From the UHGV virus genome UHGV-0286058: a stretch of DNA of 30,759 nt; one strand, given 5' to 3'. The notes below the pieces were generated by a model. The model did no database searches and was not told the DNA's origin. It was given only the letters and a program-made list of their open reading frames with translations. Made by a program: the position numbers and the translations under genes. The DNA comes from a virus. Positions 1 through 30,648 of the stretch are shown piece by piece; positions within the stretch are counted from its first letter, which is position 1, and every line of letters starts with the position of its first letter.

Positions 1-285
1 GTGATAATTCGGGTGGATGTATTCTGCGTGTTCTTTTAAAAACTTTTCAAGTTCAAATCGGGAAAGATTTTTACTAATTAAAACATCCTCGACAACTATT
101 TTTTCAAATCCGCTTGTTTGTGCAGCAATTGCAAATATATCGCGGAGTGTCTGTGATTTCCCACTGTTATTAGGTCCGACAATGATTATTTTATCATTCT
201 CACCAAGATGTATGGTTTTACCACATTTAAATATTATTTTCTTGAAATTAATTGTTGGTAGAGGGAGGGTGTTCGTATAATTCAT
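1..285 (-). CDS. P-loop NTPase, N-terminal 95 aa only (gene runs off the window start)
   Basis: Reverse-strand ATG at 285-283, 2 nt after the int stop; translation MNYTNTLPLPTINFKKIIFKCGKTIHLGENDKIIIVGPNNSGKSQTLRDI... contains Walker A GPNNSGKS. AT-rich compared with flanking phage genes. The plus-strand ORF 17-280 in the track is its antisense shadow. Confidence 0.55.
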   Translation of the reverse strand, partial: MNYTNTLPLPTINFKKIIFKCGKTIHLGENDKIIIVGPNNSGKSQTLRDIFAIAAQTSGFEKIVVEDVLISKNLSRFELEKFLKEHAEYIHPNYH

Positions 286-3746: not shown

Positions 3747-5330
3747 TTGGCTGTTCAGTTCGCGTTTCCGTGGAATGCTCCACGGTCGGCAATAACCAGT
3801 CCATATCTTACCTACGACCAACAGTATCGCCGCGACCGTATGTTCGCGGCTTTGCTGCATGCGAGAAAGGTGCTTTCTCTTCAGCCTGAGTGCGTGCGTT
3901 TTGATGTTTATCGAACCGCTGCGGTGCTGGAGAAAAATCAGGGCAGTCAACGAGCCAATGCTTTTTTAATCAGCTTCTGCAAAAAGGCATTGCCGCGTCT
4001 TGAATTGGTCGCAAAAAAATACGAGTGCGTGGGTATTAACAGCAATGTATCTGCCGCTGTTTTCGATGGTCATTTTGATACCCAGCTTATGCAATATCTG
4101 GCGTCACGCATGGTCAATATGGTCGCCAGATTTAACCGCCTCCCGGATATGTCGCGCGCCGATATTGACCTGCTGGCCGCTGATATAGCTAATTTCATTC
4201 GTGCTGAACTGGCTGATATTGATGACACCGGATTTAGCGAACTCAAAACGCTGTACACCTGGTACATGCGCGCCGGTTTTATTTCCCTGCAATTCAACAT
4301 TACACCGCCGAAATGGGAGCGTGTGACTAAAAAATATTTTGGCGAGGATGAAATCGCACCGGCAGTAATGCGTATGTTTAATGAGGTTTGGTGGCGCGAT
4401 CGTTTACGTCGTATTGCGTCTGCGTGGCGCGAACACCTGCACATTGCCGTTGGCAGCGTCAGTAAGAGAAAACACGTCTATGCTAGTAAAAACTGCGTGA
4501 CTGACTGGCGCGAGCAAAAGCGCCGCACGCGCGAATTTCTCAAGGGGCTGGATCTCGAAGACGAAGACGGCAACCGCATTAGCCTGATTGAAAAATACGA
4601 CGGCTCGGTAGCTAATCCAGCAATACGCCGCTGCGAGCTGATGACCCGCATCCGTGGGTTTGAAAACATCTGCAATGAGCTCGGTTATGTCGGTGAGTTT
4701 TACACCCTTACTGCACCGTCTAAATATCACGCCACCACCAAAGCGGGCTACCGTAATAGAAAATGGAACGGTGCCAGCCCGTCGGACACGCAGAGCTATC
4801 TAACCGGCCTATGGGCACGCATACGCGCTAAGCTACACCGGGAAGAAATCCGCATTTTCGGCATCCGTGTTGCCGAGCCTCATCACGACGGAACGCCTCA
4901 CTGGCACATGCTTATGTTCATGTTGCCGGAAGATGTCGAGCGCGTGCGCCTCATCATTCGCGATTATGCGTGGGAGGAAGACCGACACGAGCTGAGAAGT
5001 GATAAGGCCAAAAAGGCACGTTTTCATGCCGAGGCCATTGACCCGGAAAAGGGCAGCGCTACCGGCTATGTTGCTAAATACATTTCCAAAAATATCGACG
5101 GCTATGCTCTCGATGGTGAAACCGATGACGAAAGTGGTGAGTTCCTAAAAGAGACAGCCCCCGCTGTTTCAGCATGGGCGGCGCGCTGGCACATCCGACA
5201 ATTTCAGTTTATCGGCGGTGCGCCTGTGACGGTCTACCGTGAGTTGCGTCGTCTCGCTGATACCGAGACCGCGCACGGTTTGAGTATTGAGTTTGCCGCC
5301 GTTCATGACGCCGCTGATGCCGGTGATTGA
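3747..5330 (+). CDS. A: replication initiator A, catalytic part (HUH rolling-circle endonuclease); ends at an in-frame TGA
   Basis: 527 aa; HUH-like motif PHWHMLMFM and paired tyrosines GYVAKYISK (YxxxY) as in P2 A protein. Track start is TTG. Same reading frame continues into 5379-5963. Confidence 0.75.
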   Translation: MAVQFAFPWNAPRSAITSPYLTYDQQYRRDRMFAALLHARKVLSLQPECVRFDVYRTAAVLEKNQGSQRANAFLISFCKKALPRLELVAKKYECVGINSNVSAAVFDGHFDTQLMQYLASRMVNMVARFNRLPDMSRADIDLLAADIANFIRAELADIDDTGFSELKTLYTWYMRAGFISLQFNITPPKWERVTKKYFGEDEIAPAVMRMFNEVWWRDRLRRIASAWREHLHIAVGSVSKRKHVYASKNCVTDWREQKRRTREFLKGLDLEDEDGNRISLIEKYDGSVANPAIRRCELMTRIRGFENICNELGYVGEFYTLTAPSKYHATTKAGYRNRKWNGASPSDTQSYLTGLWARIRAKLHREEIRIFGIRVAEPHHDGTPHWHMLMFMLPEDVERVRLIIRDYAWEEDRHELRSDKAKKARFHAEAIDPEKGSATGYVAKYISKNIDGYALDGETDDESGEFLKETAPAVSAWAARWHIRQFQFIGGAPVTVYRELRRLADTETAHGLSIEFAAVHDAADAGD

Positions 5331-5963: not shown

Positions 5964-6043
5964 CCCTTAATATTTATCCATATCATGTACATACAGCGTA
6001 TTTAATCGTGATTTTTTTCTTCACATCTTTTGTTAATACGTGC

Positions 6044-7337: not shown

Positions 7338-7446
7338 ATAATATAGTGACAAACGCCGCCGGTGCTGAAACTCGTTTTCCGTGCTGGCGGGGTTGAACAA
7401 CGAGCCTGCGAGGCGTTAGATACATATAATCGAAAGAGGATGGATT

Positions 7447-7995
7447 ATGTCAAAGTTTACAGAGTTGTGCAGCGCATATACTGAGTTTCAGAACAAACTT
7501 TCTGATACTCGACTTGCTGCGTTTAACTTTTCTAGTCTCGTGATTAAAAATTATTTAGATTATCTTGGTATTGATAATGTAGAAACATATAAATTAATCC
7601 CGTTAGATAAAGATGAAAAACTAAATACGAAATATACACCCGCTGGAGCTACTCATTTAGGGGATGATGGGTTCTGGCATTTAGGATTTGTATTGACTGT
7701 CTATAAAGACTCTAATACTTACCCGCAGTCGCCTTTCCAAATAGATTTCAAATTCAGAAAAAATGATGATGGCTCATATACATTTGGTGTTGATAGCATA
7801 GATTTTGCAACAAAAATTACCTCTCTCAGTAACTCAAATGAATTCACACCTGTATTTGATAAAATTCAAGAGTGCATTCTAGGGCACTTTAAAGAATTTG
7901 AAGACTTTCTTGTTGGTAAGCATGACAAGATGTCATCCATTGGATTCATTCAAGAAGGTATTTTTGCGAAAATTAACAGCGAAAAAAATGCGTAA
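7447..7995 (+). CDS. AT-rich accessory protein, function unknown
   Basis: 182 aa, AGAGGA RBS, visibly lower GC than neighbours, followed by hairpin plus T-run; no transmembrane segment, no recognisable motif. Confidence 0.55.
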   Translation: MSKFTELCSAYTEFQNKLSDTRLAAFNFSSLVIKNYLDYLGIDNVETYKLIPLDKDEKLNTKYTPAGATHLGDDGFWHLGFVLTVYKDSNTYPQSPFQIDFKFRKNDDGSYTFGVDSIDFATKITSLSNSNEFTPVFDKIQECILGHFKEFEDFLVGKHDKMSSIGFIQEGIFAKINSEKNA

Positions 7996-8013
7996 AGAGT
8001 ACACAAGTAAATG

Positions 8014-8038
8014 ATGCATGCCTTAGGTGCATTTTTTT
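8014..8038 (+). terminator. putative intrinsic terminator after the accessory gene
   Basis: ATGCATGCC-TTA-GGTGCAT stem-loop followed by TTTTTTT. Confidence 0.4.
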
Positions 8039-16643: not shown

Positions 16644-17085
16644 GTTAACCGCACTGCAGGAACATCTTGCCGGTCTGATTGCCAGCCTGTCACCGGCGGC
16701 GCGTCGGCAAATGGCGGCTGAGATTGCGAAAAAGTTGCGTACAAGTCAGCAACAGCGCATCAAGCGCCAGCAGGCACCCGACGGCACCCCATATTCGGCA
16801 CGAAAGCGCCAGCCGGTGCGGGGCAAGAAAGGTCGGATTAAGCGTGAAATGTTCGCCAAACTGCGCACCAATCGCTTTATGAAAGCCAAAGGCAGCGACA
16901 GTGCGGCGGTTGTGGACTTTACCGGCAAGGTGCAGCGCATGGCGCGGGTGCATCAGTACGGCCTAAAAGACCGGCCAAACCGCAACAGCCGGGATGTGCA
17001 GTACGAGGCGCGCCCGCTGCTGGGTATTAACGCTGATGATGTTTCTGTTATTAATGATATTATCATTGGATCTTTATCAAAATAA
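16636..17085 (+). CDS. S: tail completion protein S
   Basis: 149 aa (P2 S about 150 aa); overlaps R stop. Confidence 0.7.
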   Translation: MSELTALQEHLAGLIASLSPAARRQMAAEIAKKLRTSQQQRIKRQQAPDGTPYSARKRQPVRGKKGRIKREMFAKLRTNRFMKAKGSDSAAVVDFTGKVQRMARVHQYGLKDRPNRNSRDVQYEARPLLGINADDVSVINDIIIGSLSK

Positions 17086-17110
17086 TAGTGTTAAAAGGTA
17101 GCGGCGAAAA

Positions 17111-18154
17111 ATGGGTGATGCATATTTATTCGATATCATAAAGGACATGCTGCCAGTTTTATCAGGCCTACTAGGAGTGTTGGGTATTCTCAATGTGTTT
17201 AAAACTTCGAATAATCGCCTTAGCTTTTGGGGATGGCTGGCTGTTTTTGTAATTGTGATCTCCACGATTGCAACACTGCTATTAGCGAAAAAGGAAAAAA
17301 ATGATAATGAGCGGGAAAAGATACAACTCCAAAACAAAATAGATAACATATTAAGAGACGTAGCCAAGGCTCGTGAGCCAATTGGGGAGGTTTCCATAAC
17401 CTATTGGTCGCTGCTTCCTGATTCGAATCAACTGGTTCGAAAATACAAAGACTATCTTAATGAAAAAGCAAGAGGTGAGGTCGAAAATTTTTCATTCCAT
17501 AACCTAACGAAGACTAATAAAGATTATTTCGGGACTACAATCGATTTGGATGGGAAGCTCGCCGTTTTTAGCATTGATGAAAAAAATAAGTATTGGCCCT
17601 CGGGTTCTTTCTCTGAAATCGGTCTTTTGGCCTCAAATTTTTCAATAATGCTCTGTATCAATTCCAAACACACTAATGCTAAGGATGTGCGTTTTATCAT
17701 AGGGGCAAGGAACAACTTAGATTGGTGTGCTCTTGCCTTGCTGCCAAGAACAAGTGATATCTTTTATGACGTCAAAAAAGATAAAATTGGATTGGCAACA
17801 ACCATTACATATGACAAAAAATGGGTGTATTCCAATGGCGTTATTTCCTCGGTTAGAGATTTCTTCGGTTCGGATGTCTTTTTTGTTCTTCCCTCTACAG
17901 ATTCTCGATTTTTGAATGACTATCTAAAGTCCATAGGAGCACCTCAGACGCTTATAGAGTCAAATAAAATAAAGTCCGAGATCATTGCTGGTATGAGCAC
18001 AGAGTCAGTGAGCGTCAAAATGGGGGATGGCCAACGTTTTAATATCTCAGGAGAACATCTAAAAAAATATAACTCGAAAGATGGCAGAACTTTTTTCTAT
18101 ATCAAAATGCCTTTGTCAGAAAAAGAAGTTAGTGAGCTCGAGACAAAAAATTAG
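17111..18154 (+). CDS. AT-rich membrane-anchored accessory protein, function unknown (moron between S and V)
   Basis: 347 aa; two N-terminal hydrophobic helices (LPVLSGLLGVLGILNVF, WGWLAVFVIVISTIATLLLA) then about 280 aa Lys/Asn-rich domain; GC visibly far below flanking tail genes; sits where P2 carries orf30. Confidence 0.55.
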   Translation: MGDAYLFDIIKDMLPVLSGLLGVLGILNVFKTSNNRLSFWGWLAVFVIVISTIATLLLAKKEKNDNEREKIQLQNKIDNILRDVAKAREPIGEVSITYWSLLPDSNQLVRKYKDYLNEKARGEVENFSFHNLTKTNKDYFGTTIDLDGKLAVFSIDEKNKYWPSGSFSEIGLLASNFSIMLCINSKHTNAKDVRFIIGARNNLDWCALALLPRTSDIFYDVKKDKIGLATTITYDKKWVYSNGVISSVRDFFGSDVFFVLPSTDSRFLNDYLKSIGAPQTLIESNKIKSEIIAGMSTESVSVKMGDGQRFNISGEHLKKYNSKDGRTFFYIKMPLSEKEVSELETKN

Positions 18155-18249
18155 CACGGACCATTAGTATAGTTTGATTCAGGTTTGTGTCATGCCTCAC
18201 AGATAGGAAGAAAGTTGTTCATCACTTCTCCTATCTGCATTCTGTCCGT

Positions 18250-20745: not shown

Positions 20746-21767
20746 CCGCAAAATATTTTGCCATTCTGACCAATCAGGGCGCGGCGCGGCTGGCGAACGC
20801 GGCGGCTCTCGGTACCAGACTCAACCTGACGCAGATGGCCGTCGGTGATGCGAATGGTACGCTGCTGACCCCTGACCCGGCGCAGACGAAGCTCATTAAC
20901 CAAAAGCGCATCGCGTCACTGAACCTGCTGACCGTTGACCCGGCCAATACCAACCAGATTATCGCGGAACAGATTATTCCCGAGAATGAGGGCGGTTTCT
21001 GGATCCGCGAGATTGGTCTCTACGATGACGACGGCATTCTGATTGCCGTGGCGAACTGCCCGGAGACCTACAAGCCGCAATTGCAGGAGGGAAGCGGCCG
21101 CACACAGACCATTCGCATGATTCTGATTGTGTCGAACACATCGGCCATCACCCTGAAAATCGACCCGTCGGTCGTACTGGCAACGCGTCAGTATGTCGAC
21201 GATAAGGTTATTGAGGTCAAAGTCTATGCCGATAGCCTGCTGGCCGCACACCTCACCGCCTTGAACCCGCATTCGCAATACCTGCAAATCGCCGATATTG
21301 CGAAATATACGCCGGTAGGTATACCACTTCCTTTCCCGTCAGCAACGCCGCCGACAGGCTGGCTGAAATGCAACGGCGCGGCATTTGATAAGGTGAAATA
21401 TCCGGGGCTGGCTGCTGTATTTCCGTCTGGTTATTTGCCTGATTTACGTGGTGAGTTTATTCGCGGTTGGGATGACGGGCGCGGTATTGATTCAGGCCGC
21501 ATGTTACTGAGCGCGCAGACGGGAATGCTGGAAAGGCACCGACACTTCATCGTCGCGAATACTGCATATGAGGAAACCGATGAATGGGATATTGGTGTCA
21601 TTTATCGTTCTACATACGTGCAGGGACGCGGGCTTGATGCATCTTCGACTGGAGGTAGCTTGATTCCTACCCCGACCCTTCACTCTAAAGGTCGTGTAGG
21701 TAATACCGGCGGAGCTGAAACACGACCGCGTAACATCGCATTTAATTACATCGTGAGGGCGGCATAA
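20742..21767 (+). CDS. H: tail fibre protein H (short variant)
   Basis: 341 aa; conserved N-terminus MTAKYFAILTNQGAARLANA typical of P2-like H, but about half the length I recall for P2 H (about 669 aa). Confidence 0.7.
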   Translation: MTAKYFAILTNQGAARLANAAALGTRLNLTQMAVGDANGTLLTPDPAQTKLINQKRIASLNLLTVDPANTNQIIAEQIIPENEGGFWIREIGLYDDDGILIAVANCPETYKPQLQEGSGRTQTIRMILIVSNTSAITLKIDPSVVLATRQYVDDKVIEVKVYADSLLAAHLTALNPHSQYLQIADIAKYTPVGIPLPFPSATPPTGWLKCNGAAFDKVKYPGLAAVFPSGYLPDLRGEFIRGWDDGRGIDSGRMLLSAQTGMLERHRHFIVANTAYEETDEWDIGVIYRSTYVQGRGLDASSTGGSLIPTPTLHSKGRVGNTGGAETRPRNIAFNYIVRAA

Positions 21768-28926: not shown

Positions 28927-29145
28927 ATGTTTCATTGTCCAAAGTGCCATCATGCCGCACATGCGCGAACAAGCCGCTATTTAACCGAGAATACGAAAGA
29001 GCGTTACCATCAATGCCAAAACATCAACTGTAGTTGTACGTTTATGACAATGGAAACGCTTGAACGCTTTATTGTTACTCCGGGAGCAACTGACCCAGCA
29101 CCACCTCACCCGACAGTAAGCGGTCAAAGACCACTCTGGCTCTGA
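28927..29145 (+). CDS. ogr: Ogr/B-type zinc-finger late-gene activator
   Basis: 72 aa from ATG 28927: MFHCPKCHHAAHARTSRYLTENTKERYHQCQNINCSCTF has the CxxC-N22-CxNxxC zinc-finger pattern of Ogr/Delta/B; last phage gene before the att region. Confidence 0.75.
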   Translation: MFHCPKCHHAAHARTSRYLTENTKERYHQCQNINCSCTFMTMETLERFIVTPGATDPAPPHPTVSGQRPLWL

Positions 29146-29168
29146 TCTAAGCCCGCTTCGGCGGGTAA

Positions 29169-29816
29169 CTACCTCAAAAGGCCTTCAGTCAATTCTTCGC
29201 CCGTACAGAATTGATATAGTGCACGAAGGTTCTCTTCAATCCACGTTATCTCTTTTAATGCATAACCTGAGAAACCGATCATAATATTTTCTATTTCAAT
29301 GAGTTGTGCAGAGTCTTTGTTATCTACAATCGAATCATAAAAGTGCTTTAACTCAACTATAGCTTTAAAGGCTGCATCCATCTTTTCATAAAAAACTGAA
29401 TCAGTTTTCGATACATCGTATAAAAATCTTGAGAAATTTTCCGTAGATGGTTCTGGAAGGAGGCCACCTGATTGTTTTCTTCCACTTTTTAATACTATGT
29501 AACGTGTTTTTCCTGCAGTGGTTTTGAACACTTGAAGATCTAATATACGTTCATGTTGTGGTTTTTTTTCATATGGCTCAAATGTTTCGCAAAGCTTTTT
29601 GATCTGCCCGTTGATATGCCAAGCAACCTGGCACTCCCGAGCAAATATTTGCTTTAAGGCGCGAATCTCATTTTTTCTCGCTTTAGATTTACGACGACAA
29701 TCTAACAATTCCCTAATAATGAAGAGAAAGATTGCAACAAAAGCAGATGCTGGAATGAGCGTTCCACTCGTCAAAAGGCTAACCCAATCACATTGTGTTG
29801 CAGTTTCTACCGCCAT
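29169..29816 (-). CDS. AT-rich accessory protein with N-terminal membrane anchor, function unknown
   Basis: 215 aa from ATG 29816 (track start 29858 would overlap the tRNA terminator); helix LIPASAFVAIFLFII then soluble domain; convergent with ogr; low GC. Confidence 0.5.
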   Translation of the reverse strand: MAVETATQCDWVSLLTSGTLIPASAFVAIFLFIIRELLDCRRKSKARKNEIRALKQIFARECQVAWHINGQIKKLCETFEPYEKKPQHERILDLQVFKTTAGKTRYIVLKSGRKQSGGLLPEPSTENFSRFLYDVSKTDSVFYEKMDAAFKAIVELKHFYDSIVDNKDSAQLIEIENIMIGFSGYALKEITWIEENLRALYQFCTGEELTEGLLR

Positions 29817-29844
29817 TTTATCGCCACCCCGAAATTGATAAACA

Positions 29845-29875
29845 AAAAGGCCACCCAAGTGAGTGGCCTAACTGT
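29845..29875 (-). terminator. intrinsic terminator downstream of the tRNA
   Basis: Minus strand reads AGGCCACTCACTTGGGTGGCC followed by TTTTTGTTT, directly after the tRNA 3' end. Confidence 0.4.
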
Positions 29876-29885
29876 CGGTATTTAC

Positions 29886-29961
29886 TGCTTAAATTTGGTG
29901 GCCCCTGCTGGACTTGAACCAGCGACCAAGCGATTATGAGTCGCCTGCTCTAACCACTGAG
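29886..29961 (-). tRNA. ileX: tRNA with CAU anticodon, identical in my recollection to E. coli tRNA-Ile2 (ileX/ileY); not an elongator tRNA-Met sequence
   Basis: 76 nt GGCCCCTTAGCTCAGTGGTTAGAGCAGGCGACTCATAATCGCTTGGTCGCTGGTTCAAGTCCAGCAGGGGCCACCA on the minus strand; anticodon loop CUCAUAA; divergent mug-like gene upstream matches the E. coli mug-ileX neighbourhood. Confidence 0.8.
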
Positions 29962-30095
29962 CTAAGGGGCCGTGGCGGTGAATTATAAAGTAACTCCCCT
30001 CAGCAATCCAGCCATTCACACCTGCCTGCTGTTTTTATAAACAACGCATAATCAATCCTTTATACTTATCTTAAGATGCATAGACAGGAGTAGAG

Positions 30096-30224
30096 ATGAT
30101 CAACGATATTCTGGCCCCTGGCCTGCGGGTGGTGTTCTGCGGTATTAATCCGGGCAAGTCATCGGCGCACACCGGTTTTCACTTTGCTCATCCGGGAAAT
30201 CGCTTCTGGAAGGTGATCCACTAA
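30096..30224 (+). pseudogene. mug: mug (G/U mismatch DNA glycosylase) 5' fragment, truncated after 42 codons
   Basis: [42 protein letters not shown] closely resembles the N-terminus of E. coli Mug (168 aa); stop TAA is the first 3 nt of the tRNA-derived repeat. Confidence 0.6.
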
Positions 30225-30262
30225 TCGCTTGGTCGCTGGTTCAAGTCCAGCAGGGGCCACCA
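30222..30262 (+). repeat. 41-nt copy of the tRNA 3' half (anticodon loop to CCA), inverted relative to the intact tRNA; att-core-like repeat
   Basis: TAATCGCTTGGTCGCTGGTTCAAGTCCAGCAGGGGCCACCA is identical to tRNA positions 36-76; the sequence after it is homologous but diverged from that after the intact tRNA. Confidence 0.6.
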
Positions 30263-30287
30263 AATTTTAGCTTTAGAATCATCCAGT

Positions 30288-30316
30288 TAAGCCACTCGAT
30301 TGAGTGGCTTTTTTGT
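30288..30316 (+). terminator. intrinsic terminator following the partial tRNA copy
   Basis: AAGCCACTC-GATT-GAGTGGCTT followed by TTTTGT; a diverged paralogue of the terminator at 29845-29875. Confidence 0.4.
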
Positions 30317-30480
30317 AAGTAATCCACCACACGTAGCCCGGCCTGCCGCTTCCCCTCACAAACCCTAAAAACTAAAGAAATCCCCCATCGCGCCGATCAT
30401 CATCCGTGTGTATTATTTCCTGTAGCTTTTACAACAACTAACCTTAACTCAAATACTTAAGCGCCAGAGCGAAAGGCATC

Positions 30481-30648
30481 ATGAGCACACCGATCAAACG
30501 GCTAGAAATCATTAAAAATGCCATTGAGCTGGAAGATGACGACATCATCCGGAGCCAGCTGAAACGTCTCAAAGAGGAAGCCTTTGACGATGATCTCCTG
30601 TCCATCGTCGCGGCGCTTGAGTCTCCGCCTGCTGACGACGCAGGTTAA
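30481..30648 (+). CDS. small acidic hypothetical protein (55 aa)
   Basis: ATG with GAAAGG 6 nt upstream; an overlapping minus-strand frame is also open to the window end, so the coding strand is unresolved. Confidence 0.25.
   Translation: MSTPIKRLEIIKNAIELEDDDIIRSQLKRLKEEAFDDDLLSIVAALESPPADDAG

What the first reader, a model, noticed from the sequence alone, without database searches (positions are those of the whole stretch)
29146..29885. Cargo gene between ogr and the attachment-site tRNA, convergent with the late operon
In P2 ogr lies immediately beside att, with no gene between them. Here a 215-aa AT-rich minus-strand gene with one N-terminal membrane helix fills that gap and starts just inside the tRNA-proximal terminator. 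Its position at the prophage edge and its composition suggest a lysogenic-conversion or defence moron expressed from the prophage.
Basis: partly seen in the sequence, partly recalled or inferred. Interest (0 to 1): 0.55.

Follow-up and report, generated by a model that had tools for sequence, protein, structure and literature searches.

The report
Uncharacterised membrane gene at prophage edge
A phage-186-like prophage carries an optional extra gene between its late-gene activator and its tRNA attachment site; it encodes a small inner-membrane protein of a widespread family with no annotation, it may protect the lysogen, and its function is untested.

Summary
A 215-codon minus-strand gene (29169-29816; 37.7% GC against 53.1% for the prophage) lies between the ogr/B homologue and the tRNA-Ile2 (ileX-type) attachment site. 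It replaces 66 bp of phage 186.

It is phage DNA, not host DNA. A 31.7-kb viral contig in circular order reads cI-int-attP-gene-ogr. The identical gene travels with the same prophage into different chromosomal junctions.

The gene is optional. It is absent from 186 and from 15 of 19 close relatives sampled. It is under purifying selection (dN/dS about 0.1). It is also far more diverged (43-66% identity) than the backbone around it (93-96%).

The protein has one N-terminal membrane helix (N-out, C-in by charge) and a cytoplasmic helical bundle with a three-stranded sheet. It belongs to a family of 307 clusters across Proteobacteria. None matches Pfam, NCBIfam, PHROG, PADLOC or PDB.

Its start codon and ribosome-binding site lie inside two Int arm-type sites, 31 nt behind the tRNA terminator, and no promoter was detected. 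Expression probably depends on read-through.

Best guess, untested: a lysogen-protecting exclusion or abortive-infection protein. This is an ordinary kind of feature (a moron) involving an unclassified protein family.

The parts
28927..29145 (+). ogr / 186-B homologue (72 aa, late-gene activator), convergent with the cargo gene
   Evidence: ORF list. 96% aa identity to 186 B. Ogr_Delta Pfam hit on the identical gene in L004.
29151..29166 (.). Short GC hairpin in the 23-nt gap between the two convergent stop codons. It replaces the 186 tB terminator and has no U-run on either strand.
   Evidence: Sequence. Alignment to 186. Fold. Not called as a terminator by the scan. Hairpin conserved in L012 and L025.
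29169..29816 (-). Cargo gene: 215-aa bitopic inner-membrane protein of an uncharacterised family. TM helix about residues 20-38 (nt 29703-29759). Cytoplasmic helical bundle plus 3-stranded sheet.
29808..29829 (.). Two tandem Int arm-type sites, TACCGCCATTT and TATCGCCACCC (186 consensus YAYCGCCAYTY). They contain the cargo start codon (29814-29816) and its Shine-Dalgarno-like GGGGTGG.
   Evidence: 186 annotation. Six-way alignment A4. Sequence.
29838..29869 (-). Intrinsic terminator: 9-bp stem, 6 GC pairs, then UUUUUGUUUAU. It is homologous to the 186 'predicted terminator of lysogenic operon'. In the lysogen it ends the hybrid tRNA gene.
29896..29971 (-). tRNA-Ile2 (anticodon CAT; ileX-type, next to mug). 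Its 3' part is supplied by the phage.
29906..29941 (.). att core shared with 186 attP (186 20995-21030). The predicted crossover falls in the anticodon loop at 29934-29940. The phage/host junction is at 29941/29942.
   Evidence: 186 annotation. blastn map. 100% identity to L005 and L007 ends at 29941/29942.

Best explanation
SHOWN. The gene is an optional accessory gene (moron) of a 186-like (Eganvirus-type) temperate phage. It is inserted between the ogr/B gene and the P arm of attP. It encodes a 215-aa protein under purifying selection. The protein has one N-terminal transmembrane helix and a predicted C-terminal domain made of a long stalk helix, a three-stranded sheet and a helical bundle. 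It belongs to an unannotated family scattered through Proteobacteria as solitary genes that are AT-rich relative to their hosts.

INFERRED FROM ANATOMY.
- Topology is N-out/C-in, by the positive-inside rule.
- The gene has no promoter of its own, because the 31 nt between the upstream terminator and the ATG are taken up by Int arm-type sites.
- It can therefore only be transcribed by read-through of that terminator. In the lysogen the source would be the host tRNA-Ile2 promoter. In the circular phage it would be the cI-int lysogenic transcript, which runs int-attP-gene on one strand.

INFERRED, UNTESTED. The protein benefits the lysogen by acting at the inner membrane against superinfecting phages. 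The conserved transmembrane helix would be the effector or interaction surface. The fast-evolving sheet and loop region (residues 83-125) would be the specificity or sensing part. The action would be either a block to genome entry (superinfection exclusion) or membrane damage on infection (abortive infection).
For: Phage-borne and optional.
- A circular-order contig, L020, reads cI, int, attP, gene, ogr, D.
- The exact protein sits in the same prophage next to intact mug in E. coli, or next to other islands.
- The gene is a 659-nt replacement of 66 nt of 186.
- It is absent from 186 and from 15 of 19 close relatives.
- Only 2 of 5426 complete E. coli genomes carry a homologue.

Real protein.
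- dN/dS is 0.095-0.111.
- Length is conserved at 215 aa in most of the 31 close clusters.
- ORF significance.

Architecture.
- AlphaFold pLDDT 83.8, pTM 0.72: helix 23-82, strands 92-119, helices 126-205.
- Hydropathy and charge asymmetry.

No own promoter.
- No promoter-like site was found.
- The start codon and SD lie inside conserved arm sites.
- The terminator fold is strong.

Arms-race-like pattern.
- Phages whose D protein is 93-96% identical carry cargo alleles only 43-66% identical.
- The TM helix is the most conserved segment (entropy 0.61). The sheet and loop are among the most variable (1.31).

Host retention.
- In Enterobacter the whole prophage is deleted right after the cargo hairpin, yet the gene is intact.
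- The same allele (95% aa) sits in an intact prophage in L025.

Mobile, solitary family.
- 307 clusters at 50% identity.
- Six distant contexts share no neighbour and show no phage genes.
- The gene is always 3.5-18.5 GC points below its locus.

Prior from the literature.
- Unknown genes in P4/P2 defence loci often prove defensive: 6 of 8 P4 loci tested (PMC13586616).
- The tail-to-cI interval is reported as a third P2-like hotspot (bioRxiv 10.1101/2024.10.15.618418).
Against: - Expression is unproven. The upstream terminator looks efficient.
- In the tandem arrays L005 and L007 the gene is preceded by another island's arm, not by the tRNA. No promoter-like site is present there either.
- The locus holds only this one family in the sample, unlike a typical diverse defence hotspot.
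- Distant members sit among housekeeping genes without other defence genes.
- A Salmonella diarizonae copy has decayed to 68 codons.
- Morons of P2-like phages can serve functions other than defence, for example neaT (PMC3573123).
Confidence: 0.4

Rival explanations
1. Lysogenic-conversion factor unrelated to phage defence. On this view the membrane-anchored protein changes host envelope or stress physiology, for example by binding a host inner-membrane complex, and so raises lysogen fitness in some niche.
For: - An intact orphan copy is kept in Enterobacter after prophage loss.
- Distant relatives sit singly among housekeeping genes in non-phage contexts.
- There is precedent for AT-rich fitness morons in P2-like prophages: neaT (PMC3573123).
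- A conserved helix face in the TM segment (P22, A28, F32, E36) would suit binding to a host membrane protein.
Against: - No domain or fold points to any physiological pathway.
- Alleles are far more diverged than the phage backbone. That fits antagonistic co-evolution better than a housekeeping-type interaction.
- The gene is very rare: 2 of 5426 E. coli genomes and 2 of 185,579 species representatives.
Confidence: 0.27
2. Phage life-cycle accessory. On this view it is the last gene of the lysogenic (cI-int) transcript in the circular genome. It would act early after infection or at induction, for example by modulating a membrane protease such as FtsH that controls CII-type lysogeny factors, or by affecting lysis or injection. 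It would not serve the established lysogen.
For: - In circular order it is co-directional with and downstream of cI-int.
- Its translation start is embedded in Int arm-type sites.
- It has no promoter of its own.
Against: - It is absent from 186 itself and from most close relatives, so it is not needed for the cycle.
- A terminator separates it from int.
- It is retained intact without any phage in Enterobacter.
- It is present in non-phage contexts in distant bacteria.
Confidence: 0.15
3. Host gene, or host DNA picked up by aberrant excision, that really lies outside the mobile unit.
For: Homologues lie directly downstream of ileX with no prophage in Enterobacter. A fragment does so in Salmonella diarizonae.
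Against: - Those orphan copies still carry the phage-type terminator and both Int arm-type sites between tRNA and gene.
- In L012 similarity to the prophage L025 stops just after the cargo hairpin. It is followed by a GGGCCACCA remnant of the tRNA end. This is the signature of a prophage deletion.
- The gene is inside a circular-order phage contig.
- E. coli sites without the phage have nfeF next to ileX.
- An ancient capture from some host cannot be excluded, but it is not what is present now.
Confidence: 0.03
4. Silent or decaying passenger with no current function.
For: - No promoter was found.
- There is an efficient-looking terminator upstream.
- A truncated copy exists in S. diarizonae.
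- AT-rich DNA is likely to be silenced.
Against: - dN/dS is about 0.1 across alleles whose synonymous sites are saturated.
- Length is conserved in most of the 31 close clusters, and the wider family (307 clusters) matches almost entirely at full length, about 195-205 aa.
- An SD-like sequence is conserved.
Confidence: 0.05

Closest known systems
Phage 186 B-attP interval (U32222)
   Same: - Backbone is 87-93% identical.
- Same order: D, B/ogr, arm-type Int sites, lysogenic-operon terminator, IHF site, truncated tRNA-Ile core, with the crossover in the anticodon loop.
   Different: - 186 has 157 bp and no gene between B and the core.
- Here 659 nt replace 66 nt of 186. The lost segment includes the tB terminator and the third, inverted arm-type site.
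Classical moron / defence positions of P2-like phages (old-tin between A and Q; Z/fun between G and FI; int-att and tail-to-cI intervals)
   Same: - An AT-rich, non-essential, variably present gene in a permissive gap of a P2-like genome.
- The tail-to-cI interval has been reported as a third hotspot.
   Different: - It sits on the ogr side of attP, a position not listed in PMC3573123 or PMC13586616.
- In the sample the gap is either empty or holds this single family, rather than diverse cargo.
- No match to Old, Tin, Fun or any PADLOC model.
Inner-membrane superinfection-exclusion or abortive-infection proteins of temperate phages (P22 SieA, T4 Imm, HK97 gp15, lambda RexB; from my own knowledge, not tested here)
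   Same: Small prophage-encoded inner-membrane protein, dispensable for the phage.
   Different: - No detectable sequence or structural similarity.
- Most of those proteins have two or more membrane helices or a partner protein. This one has a single helix plus a roughly 175-residue cytoplasmic domain, and it stands alone.
Conversion genes lying next to attP (for example ctx of the P2-like Pseudomonas phage phiCTX, or tox of corynephage beta; from my own knowledge)
   Same: Cargo sits immediately beside the attachment site at a prophage end.
   Different: - Those genes are secreted toxins with their own promoters.
- Here the product is a membrane protein and the gene has no recognisable promoter.
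- The chromosomal orphan copies found here are remnants of phages, not sources for them.
[not shown]
   Different: - Sequence identity is 3-13%.
- Foldseek finds nothing at E<=0.001.
- The three-stranded sheet insert and the conserved motifs (ARECxLxW, ELxH, LYxxCTG...RLR-COOH) have no counterpart.
- Chemoreceptor bundles are periplasmic, whereas this domain is predicted to be cytoplasmic.

Membership tests
Prophage moron (accessory gene carried inside the mobile unit) | Lies between attL and attR / is part of the circular phage genome | tested here: met
   L020 has circular order cI-int-attP-gene-ogr. The gene lies on the phage side of the arm-type sites. The identical gene and prophage occur at different junctions.
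Prophage moron (accessory gene carried inside the mobile unit) | Dispensable: close relatives lack it while flanks are conserved | tested here: met
   186 lacks it. 15 of 19 close relatives have about 150 nt between ogr and the core. E. coli G47-1 has 158 bp.
Prophage moron (accessory gene carried inside the mobile unit) | Own promoter and terminator (classical definition) | tested here: not met
   No sigma-70-like site between terminator and ATG. The downstream hairpin has no U-run. This was a consensus scan only, so weak or atypical promoters are not excluded.
Prophage moron (accessory gene carried inside the mobile unit) | Deviant base composition | tested here: met
   37.7% against 53.1% GC.
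Known anti-phage defence systems (PADLOC-DB v2.0.0) | Significant match to a defence protein model | tested here: not met
   0 families for the protein. Among 100 relatives there are only three isolated single-member hits at E 0.004-0.008.
Known anti-phage defence systems (PADLOC-DB v2.0.0) | Protects cells against phage infection | not testable with these tools
   Needs plaque and EOP assays.
Any curated protein family (Pfam-A, NCBIfam, PHROGs) or solved structure | Score above family threshold / significant fold match | tested here: not met
   Pfam best hit is 13.9 bits against a cut-off of 27. NCBIfam none. PHROG E>0.1, and 0 of 100 relatives match. Pfam on 100 relatives gives only scattered single hits. 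PDB profile search E>=0.28. Foldseek PDB and BFVD: none at E<=0.001.
Superinfection-exclusion membrane proteins | Inner-membrane location | tested here: inconclusive
   One strong hydrophobic helix and positive-inside charge bias. AlphaFold helix 23-82. This is prediction only.
Superinfection-exclusion membrane proteins | Expressed in the lysogen | not testable with these tools
   No promoter found. Read-through from the tRNA promoter is inferred.
Host gene outside the att core | Present at the empty site / absent from the free phage | tested here: not met
   Empty E. coli sites show nfeF next to ileX. The gene is present in a circular-order phage contig. The orphan copies keep phage arm sites and a deletion scar.

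The most novel reading that the evidence does not exclude
The gene founds a new single-protein, membrane-anchored anti-phage (exclusion or abortive-infection) family spread through Proteobacteria. In 186-like phages it would be wired as an integration-dependent switch. Being promoterless and fused to the Int arm sites, it would be driven by the host tRNA-Ile2 promoter through a leaky terminator once the phage integrates. In the circular genome it would be driven by the cI-int transcript. In tandem arrays, or during lytic convergent transcription, it would be silent.
Probability: 0.15. Interest if true: 0.6.

Novelty: new member of a known kind. Interest (0 to 1): 0.35.

Why it matters
If the protein protects lysogens, it adds an unannotated single-gene family to the catalogue of phage-borne immunity. 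The family has 307 clusters at 50% identity and no Pfam or DUF entry.

It would also add a fourth cargo position, the ogr side of attP, to the P2/186 map.

The anatomy is a compact test case for how cargo can be squeezed against a recombination site:
- The start codon and ribosome-binding site are built from Int arm-type sites.
- The gene's upstream promoter changes with integration state.

The Enterobacter orphan copy is a clean example of a host keeping a single prophage gene after losing the phage.

If no phenotype is found, this is one more hypothetical prophage gene.

Tried and rejected
- Family searches on the protein (Pfam, PADLOC, PHROGs, NCBIfam) gave nothing usable. The same libraries on 100 relatives gave nothing consistent.
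- tblastn against 50,697 phage records found no match.
- A PDB profile search found nothing.
- Domain fusions were examined in ten longer relatives. None had a Pfam domain.
- Cluster look-up of ten distant relatives returned no names.
With the close alignment it returned only 2 species.
- Idea that the gene forms one system with the AAA_15 ATPase downstream of int, split by attP: rejected. L020 has the gene but no ATPase between int and attP.
- Idea of a Cys/His/Glu metal site (C62, H158, C204, ExxH): could not be tested because model coordinates are not exposed. Part of the motif (E63, N65, D151) is also not kept in the phage subfamily.
- Idea that the phage captured the gene from an Enterobacter chromosome: rejected in favour of prophage decay.
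- The TTG-extended 229-aa reading: rejected. The extension runs through the terminator and arm sites, and the Enterobacter allele starts at a different ATG in another frame.

Full report
**1. The observation**

The window holds a 186-like prophage. blastn against phage 186 (U32222) gives 87-93% identity over almost the whole of 305-29146. Integrase and CI repressor are at the left end. The D and ogr/B homologues are at the right end.

ARAGORN finds one tRNA, anticodon CAT, at 29896-29971 on the minus strand. In E. coli the same gene is annotated tRNA-Ile and lies next to mug, so it is ileX-type.

Between the ogr stop (29145) and the tRNA lies a minus-strand ORF, 29169-29858. The conserved ATG at 29816 gives 215 aa.

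The ORF is not a chance reading frame:
- No shuffle out of 2000 reached its length. P(no stop) is 6e-8 at this composition.
- It has full-length homologues.
- dN/dS is 0.095-0.111, with synonymous sites saturated.

GC is 37.7% against 53.1% for the prophage body. A single strongly hydrophobic segment spans residues 20-38. Net charge is -2 before it and +5 after it.

**2. What the interval looks like next to phage 186**

The 186 record annotates the following between B and int:
- the tB terminator;
- three Int arm-type sites (consensus YAYCGCCAYTY);
- the 'predicted terminator of lysogenic operon';
- an IHF site;
- a truncated tRNA-Ile core, with the crossover in the anticodon loop.

The window matches 186 up to 29146 and again from 29806 to 29941. 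In between, 659 nt replace 66 nt of 186, a segment that includes tB and the third arm site.

The two remaining arm sites are TACCGCCATTT (29808-29818) and TATCGCCACCC (29819-29829). They are conserved in all six aligned loci. They contain the cargo start codon (complement of CAT at 29814-29816) and its Shine-Dalgarno-like GGGGTGG. This explains why the protein family begins M-A-V almost invariably.

The terminator hairpin has a 9-bp stem followed by a U-run (29869-29838, minus strand). It ends 31 nt upstream of the ATG. The consensus scan finds no promoter-like site there. The same junction in L005 has none either.

**3. Phage DNA or host DNA**

IMG/VR contig L020 (31.7 kb) is in circular order, with the first four features on one strand: CI (4125-4745), Int (from 4749), a tRNA 3' half with its terminator, and the gene (ATG near 6002, ending 6648). 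ogr and D follow on the other strand.

The exact 215-aa protein is indexed in 297 blocks of the assembly collection. In the places read, it sits in the same prophage. That prophage lies next to intact mug-rpoD-dnaG in E. coli, or next to P4-type integrase islands. Identity to the window stops at 29941/29942, the predicted crossover. The gene therefore travels with the phage.

Homologues also occur directly downstream of ileX with no prophage in Enterobacter. A 68-codon fragment does so in Salmonella enterica subsp. diarizonae. These copies still carry the phage-type terminator and both arm sites.

In Enterobacter L012, similarity to the prophage-bearing contig L025 (95% aa for the gene) ends just after the small hairpin downstream of the gene. 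It is followed by GGGCCACCA, the last bases of the tRNA. This is what a deletion of everything from ogr to attL would leave. The orphan copies are prophage remnants, not the source of the gene.

**4. How common it is**

- tblastn finds nothing in 50,697 phage records.
- Only 2 of 5426 complete E. coli genomes have a blastn-detectable homologue. Both carry a 58%-identical allele in the same position. By comparison, 76 records carry a close (80-95% nt) D-ogr segment.
- Only 2 of 185,579 species representatives match.
- Of the 80 IMG/VR loci retrieved with the ogr protein, 19 were close relatives (ogr at least 79% identical) that were informative for this interval. In 15 the tRNA core lies about 150 nt after ogr with no ORF. 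In 4 this family is present, with the core at about 750-775 nt where the contig reaches it.

The gap is thus bimodal: empty, or filled by this one family. It is not a diverse hotspot.

Phages whose D protein is 93-96% identical to the window's carry cargo alleles only 66, 64 and 43% identical. The cargo is much more diverged than its backbone.

**5. The protein**

AlphaFold2 on 29 sequences gives pLDDT 83.8 and pTM 0.72. The model has:
- a continuous helix 23-82 (membrane segment plus stalk);
- three strands (92-98, 104-110, 113-119);
- helices 126-138, 140-164, 166-173 and 179-205.

A profile search of 1.84 billion representatives finds 307 clusters at E<=0.001 and 187 at E<=1e-10. Nearly all are full-length at 195-205 aa. 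Named members come from Pelomonas, Sulfuriferula, Paraburkholderia and Sphingorhabdus, and all are 'hypothetical'.

Conserved features across the family:
- a helix face in the membrane segment (P22, A28, F32, E36);
- a basic stretch after the membrane segment;
- the ARECxLxW motif (E61, C62);
- ELxH (H158);
- a C-terminal LYxxCTG...RLR.

None of 100 members matches Pfam, PADLOC, PHROGs or PDB consistently. Longer relatives add no known domain.

Within the enterobacterial subfamily the membrane segment is the most conserved part (entropy 0.61). The 83-125 sheet and loop region is among the most variable (1.31).

Six genomic contexts of distant members show no common neighbour, no phage genes and no adjacent tRNA. 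In every one the gene is 3.5-18.5 GC points below its locus. This fits a solitary, horizontally moving gene.

**6. Mechanism**

Shown: it is an optional phage gene that encodes a conserved bitopic membrane protein.

Inferred from anatomy:
- The C-terminal domain is cytoplasmic.
- Transcription must pass the upstream terminator. In the lysogen it would come from the tRNA-Ile2 promoter. In the circular genome it would come from the cI-int transcript, because integration cuts the gene away from int and places it behind the host tRNA.

Caveat: in tandem arrays (L005, L007) the tRNA promoter is not upstream. Expression would then be context-dependent, or an unrecognised promoter exists.

The hairpin between the convergent ogr and cargo genes lacks a U-run. 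Lytic transcription from pB or the late promoters may therefore run antisense into the gene. This is speculation.

Function. I favour a lysogen-protecting role against superinfecting phages, either exclusion at the inner membrane or abortive infection. The reasons:
- The gene is dispensable and rare.
- Its alleles are hyper-diverged on a conserved backbone.
- It combines a conserved membrane helix with a variable soluble region.
- A host has kept it after losing the phage.
- Unknown cargo of P2/P4 elements often turns out to be defensive (PMC13586616).

Nothing links it directly to any known defence protein, so confidence is only about 0.4. Non-defence conversion (0.27) and a phage life-cycle role (0.15) remain open.

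**7. Comparison with known work**

Published maps of P2-like phages list the following moron or defence positions:
- A-Q and G-FI (PMC3573123);
- int-att, int-primase and the tail genes (PMC13586616);
- 'between a tail protein and CI' (bioRxiv 10.1101/2024.10.15.618418).

The present gene falls within the last, broad interval. It is on the ogr side of attP, and I did not find that side described specifically.

As a kind of object it is a prophage moron. It departs from the classical definition in lacking recognisable transcription signals of its own. As a protein it belongs to no described family.

**8. Verdict**

Novelty: a new member of a known kind. Interest is moderate to low (0.35). It would rise if a phage-resistance phenotype or the integration-dependent expression switch were demonstrated.

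Noticed in passing
window 30096-30316: mug is cut after codon 42 (30221). Inside the anticodon-loop crossover ('TAA') it is joined to an inverted second copy of the tRNA 3' core plus an attP-type terminator (30222-30316). That copy is 86% identical to the 186 attP arm and 92-94% to L016/L017. It looks like a second integrative element inserted at a secondary site in mug. The tRNA-mug' flank is 91.7% identical to Enterobacter loci and 83% to E. coli.
   Followed up: partly
window 1-285 (-): An AAA_15-type ATPase ORF starts 12 nt after the int stop and runs off the window. It has weak PADLOC hits to mad8, AriA and NsnB. It is a second cargo, in the int-att position, where 186 has orf69.
   Followed up: partly
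window 7420-8014 and 17026-18236: Two further stretches have no counterpart in 186. They hold ORFs of 182 aa (7447-7995) and 347 aa (17111-18154). Neither has a Pfam or PADLOC match.
   Followed up: partly
window 3733/3761: The 186 segment 24875-26761 (orf81-orf84, annotated not essential) is missing from this prophage.
   Followed up: no
L012 7829-8700 (Enterobacter); L017 5846-6210 (S. enterica diarizonae): Orphan copies of the cargo gene lie next to ileX with no prophage. The Enterobacter copy is intact and has a deletion scar plus a GGGCCACCA core remnant. The Salmonella copy is truncated to 68 codons. Both keep the phage arm-type sites.
   Followed up: yes
L020 5874-5925; L001 6283-6330: The phage-borne tRNA 3' halves of two related phages carry a compensatory T-stem change (CTGG..CCAG to TTGG..CCAA) plus two T-loop changes. 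Integration therefore creates a hybrid tRNA-Ile2 with an altered but still paired T arm.
   Followed up: no
L005 9640-10001; L007: The identical prophage also occurs in tandem behind P4-type integrase islands. These have a repeated GGGTCAGGTAA(T/C) arm motif. In that arrangement the cargo gene is not downstream of the tRNA promoter.
   Followed up: partly
window 29169-29816: 6 of the 18 Ile codons are ATA, the rare codon read by the adjacent tRNA-Ile2. This is probably just a consequence of AT-richness.
   Followed up: no
window 30356-30621: This stretch includes a 55-aa acidic ORF (30481-30648) with no family match. It is 99.2% identical to part of an Enterobacter hormaechei record in the plasmid collection, annotated 'molecular chaperone DnaJ'.
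   Followed up: no
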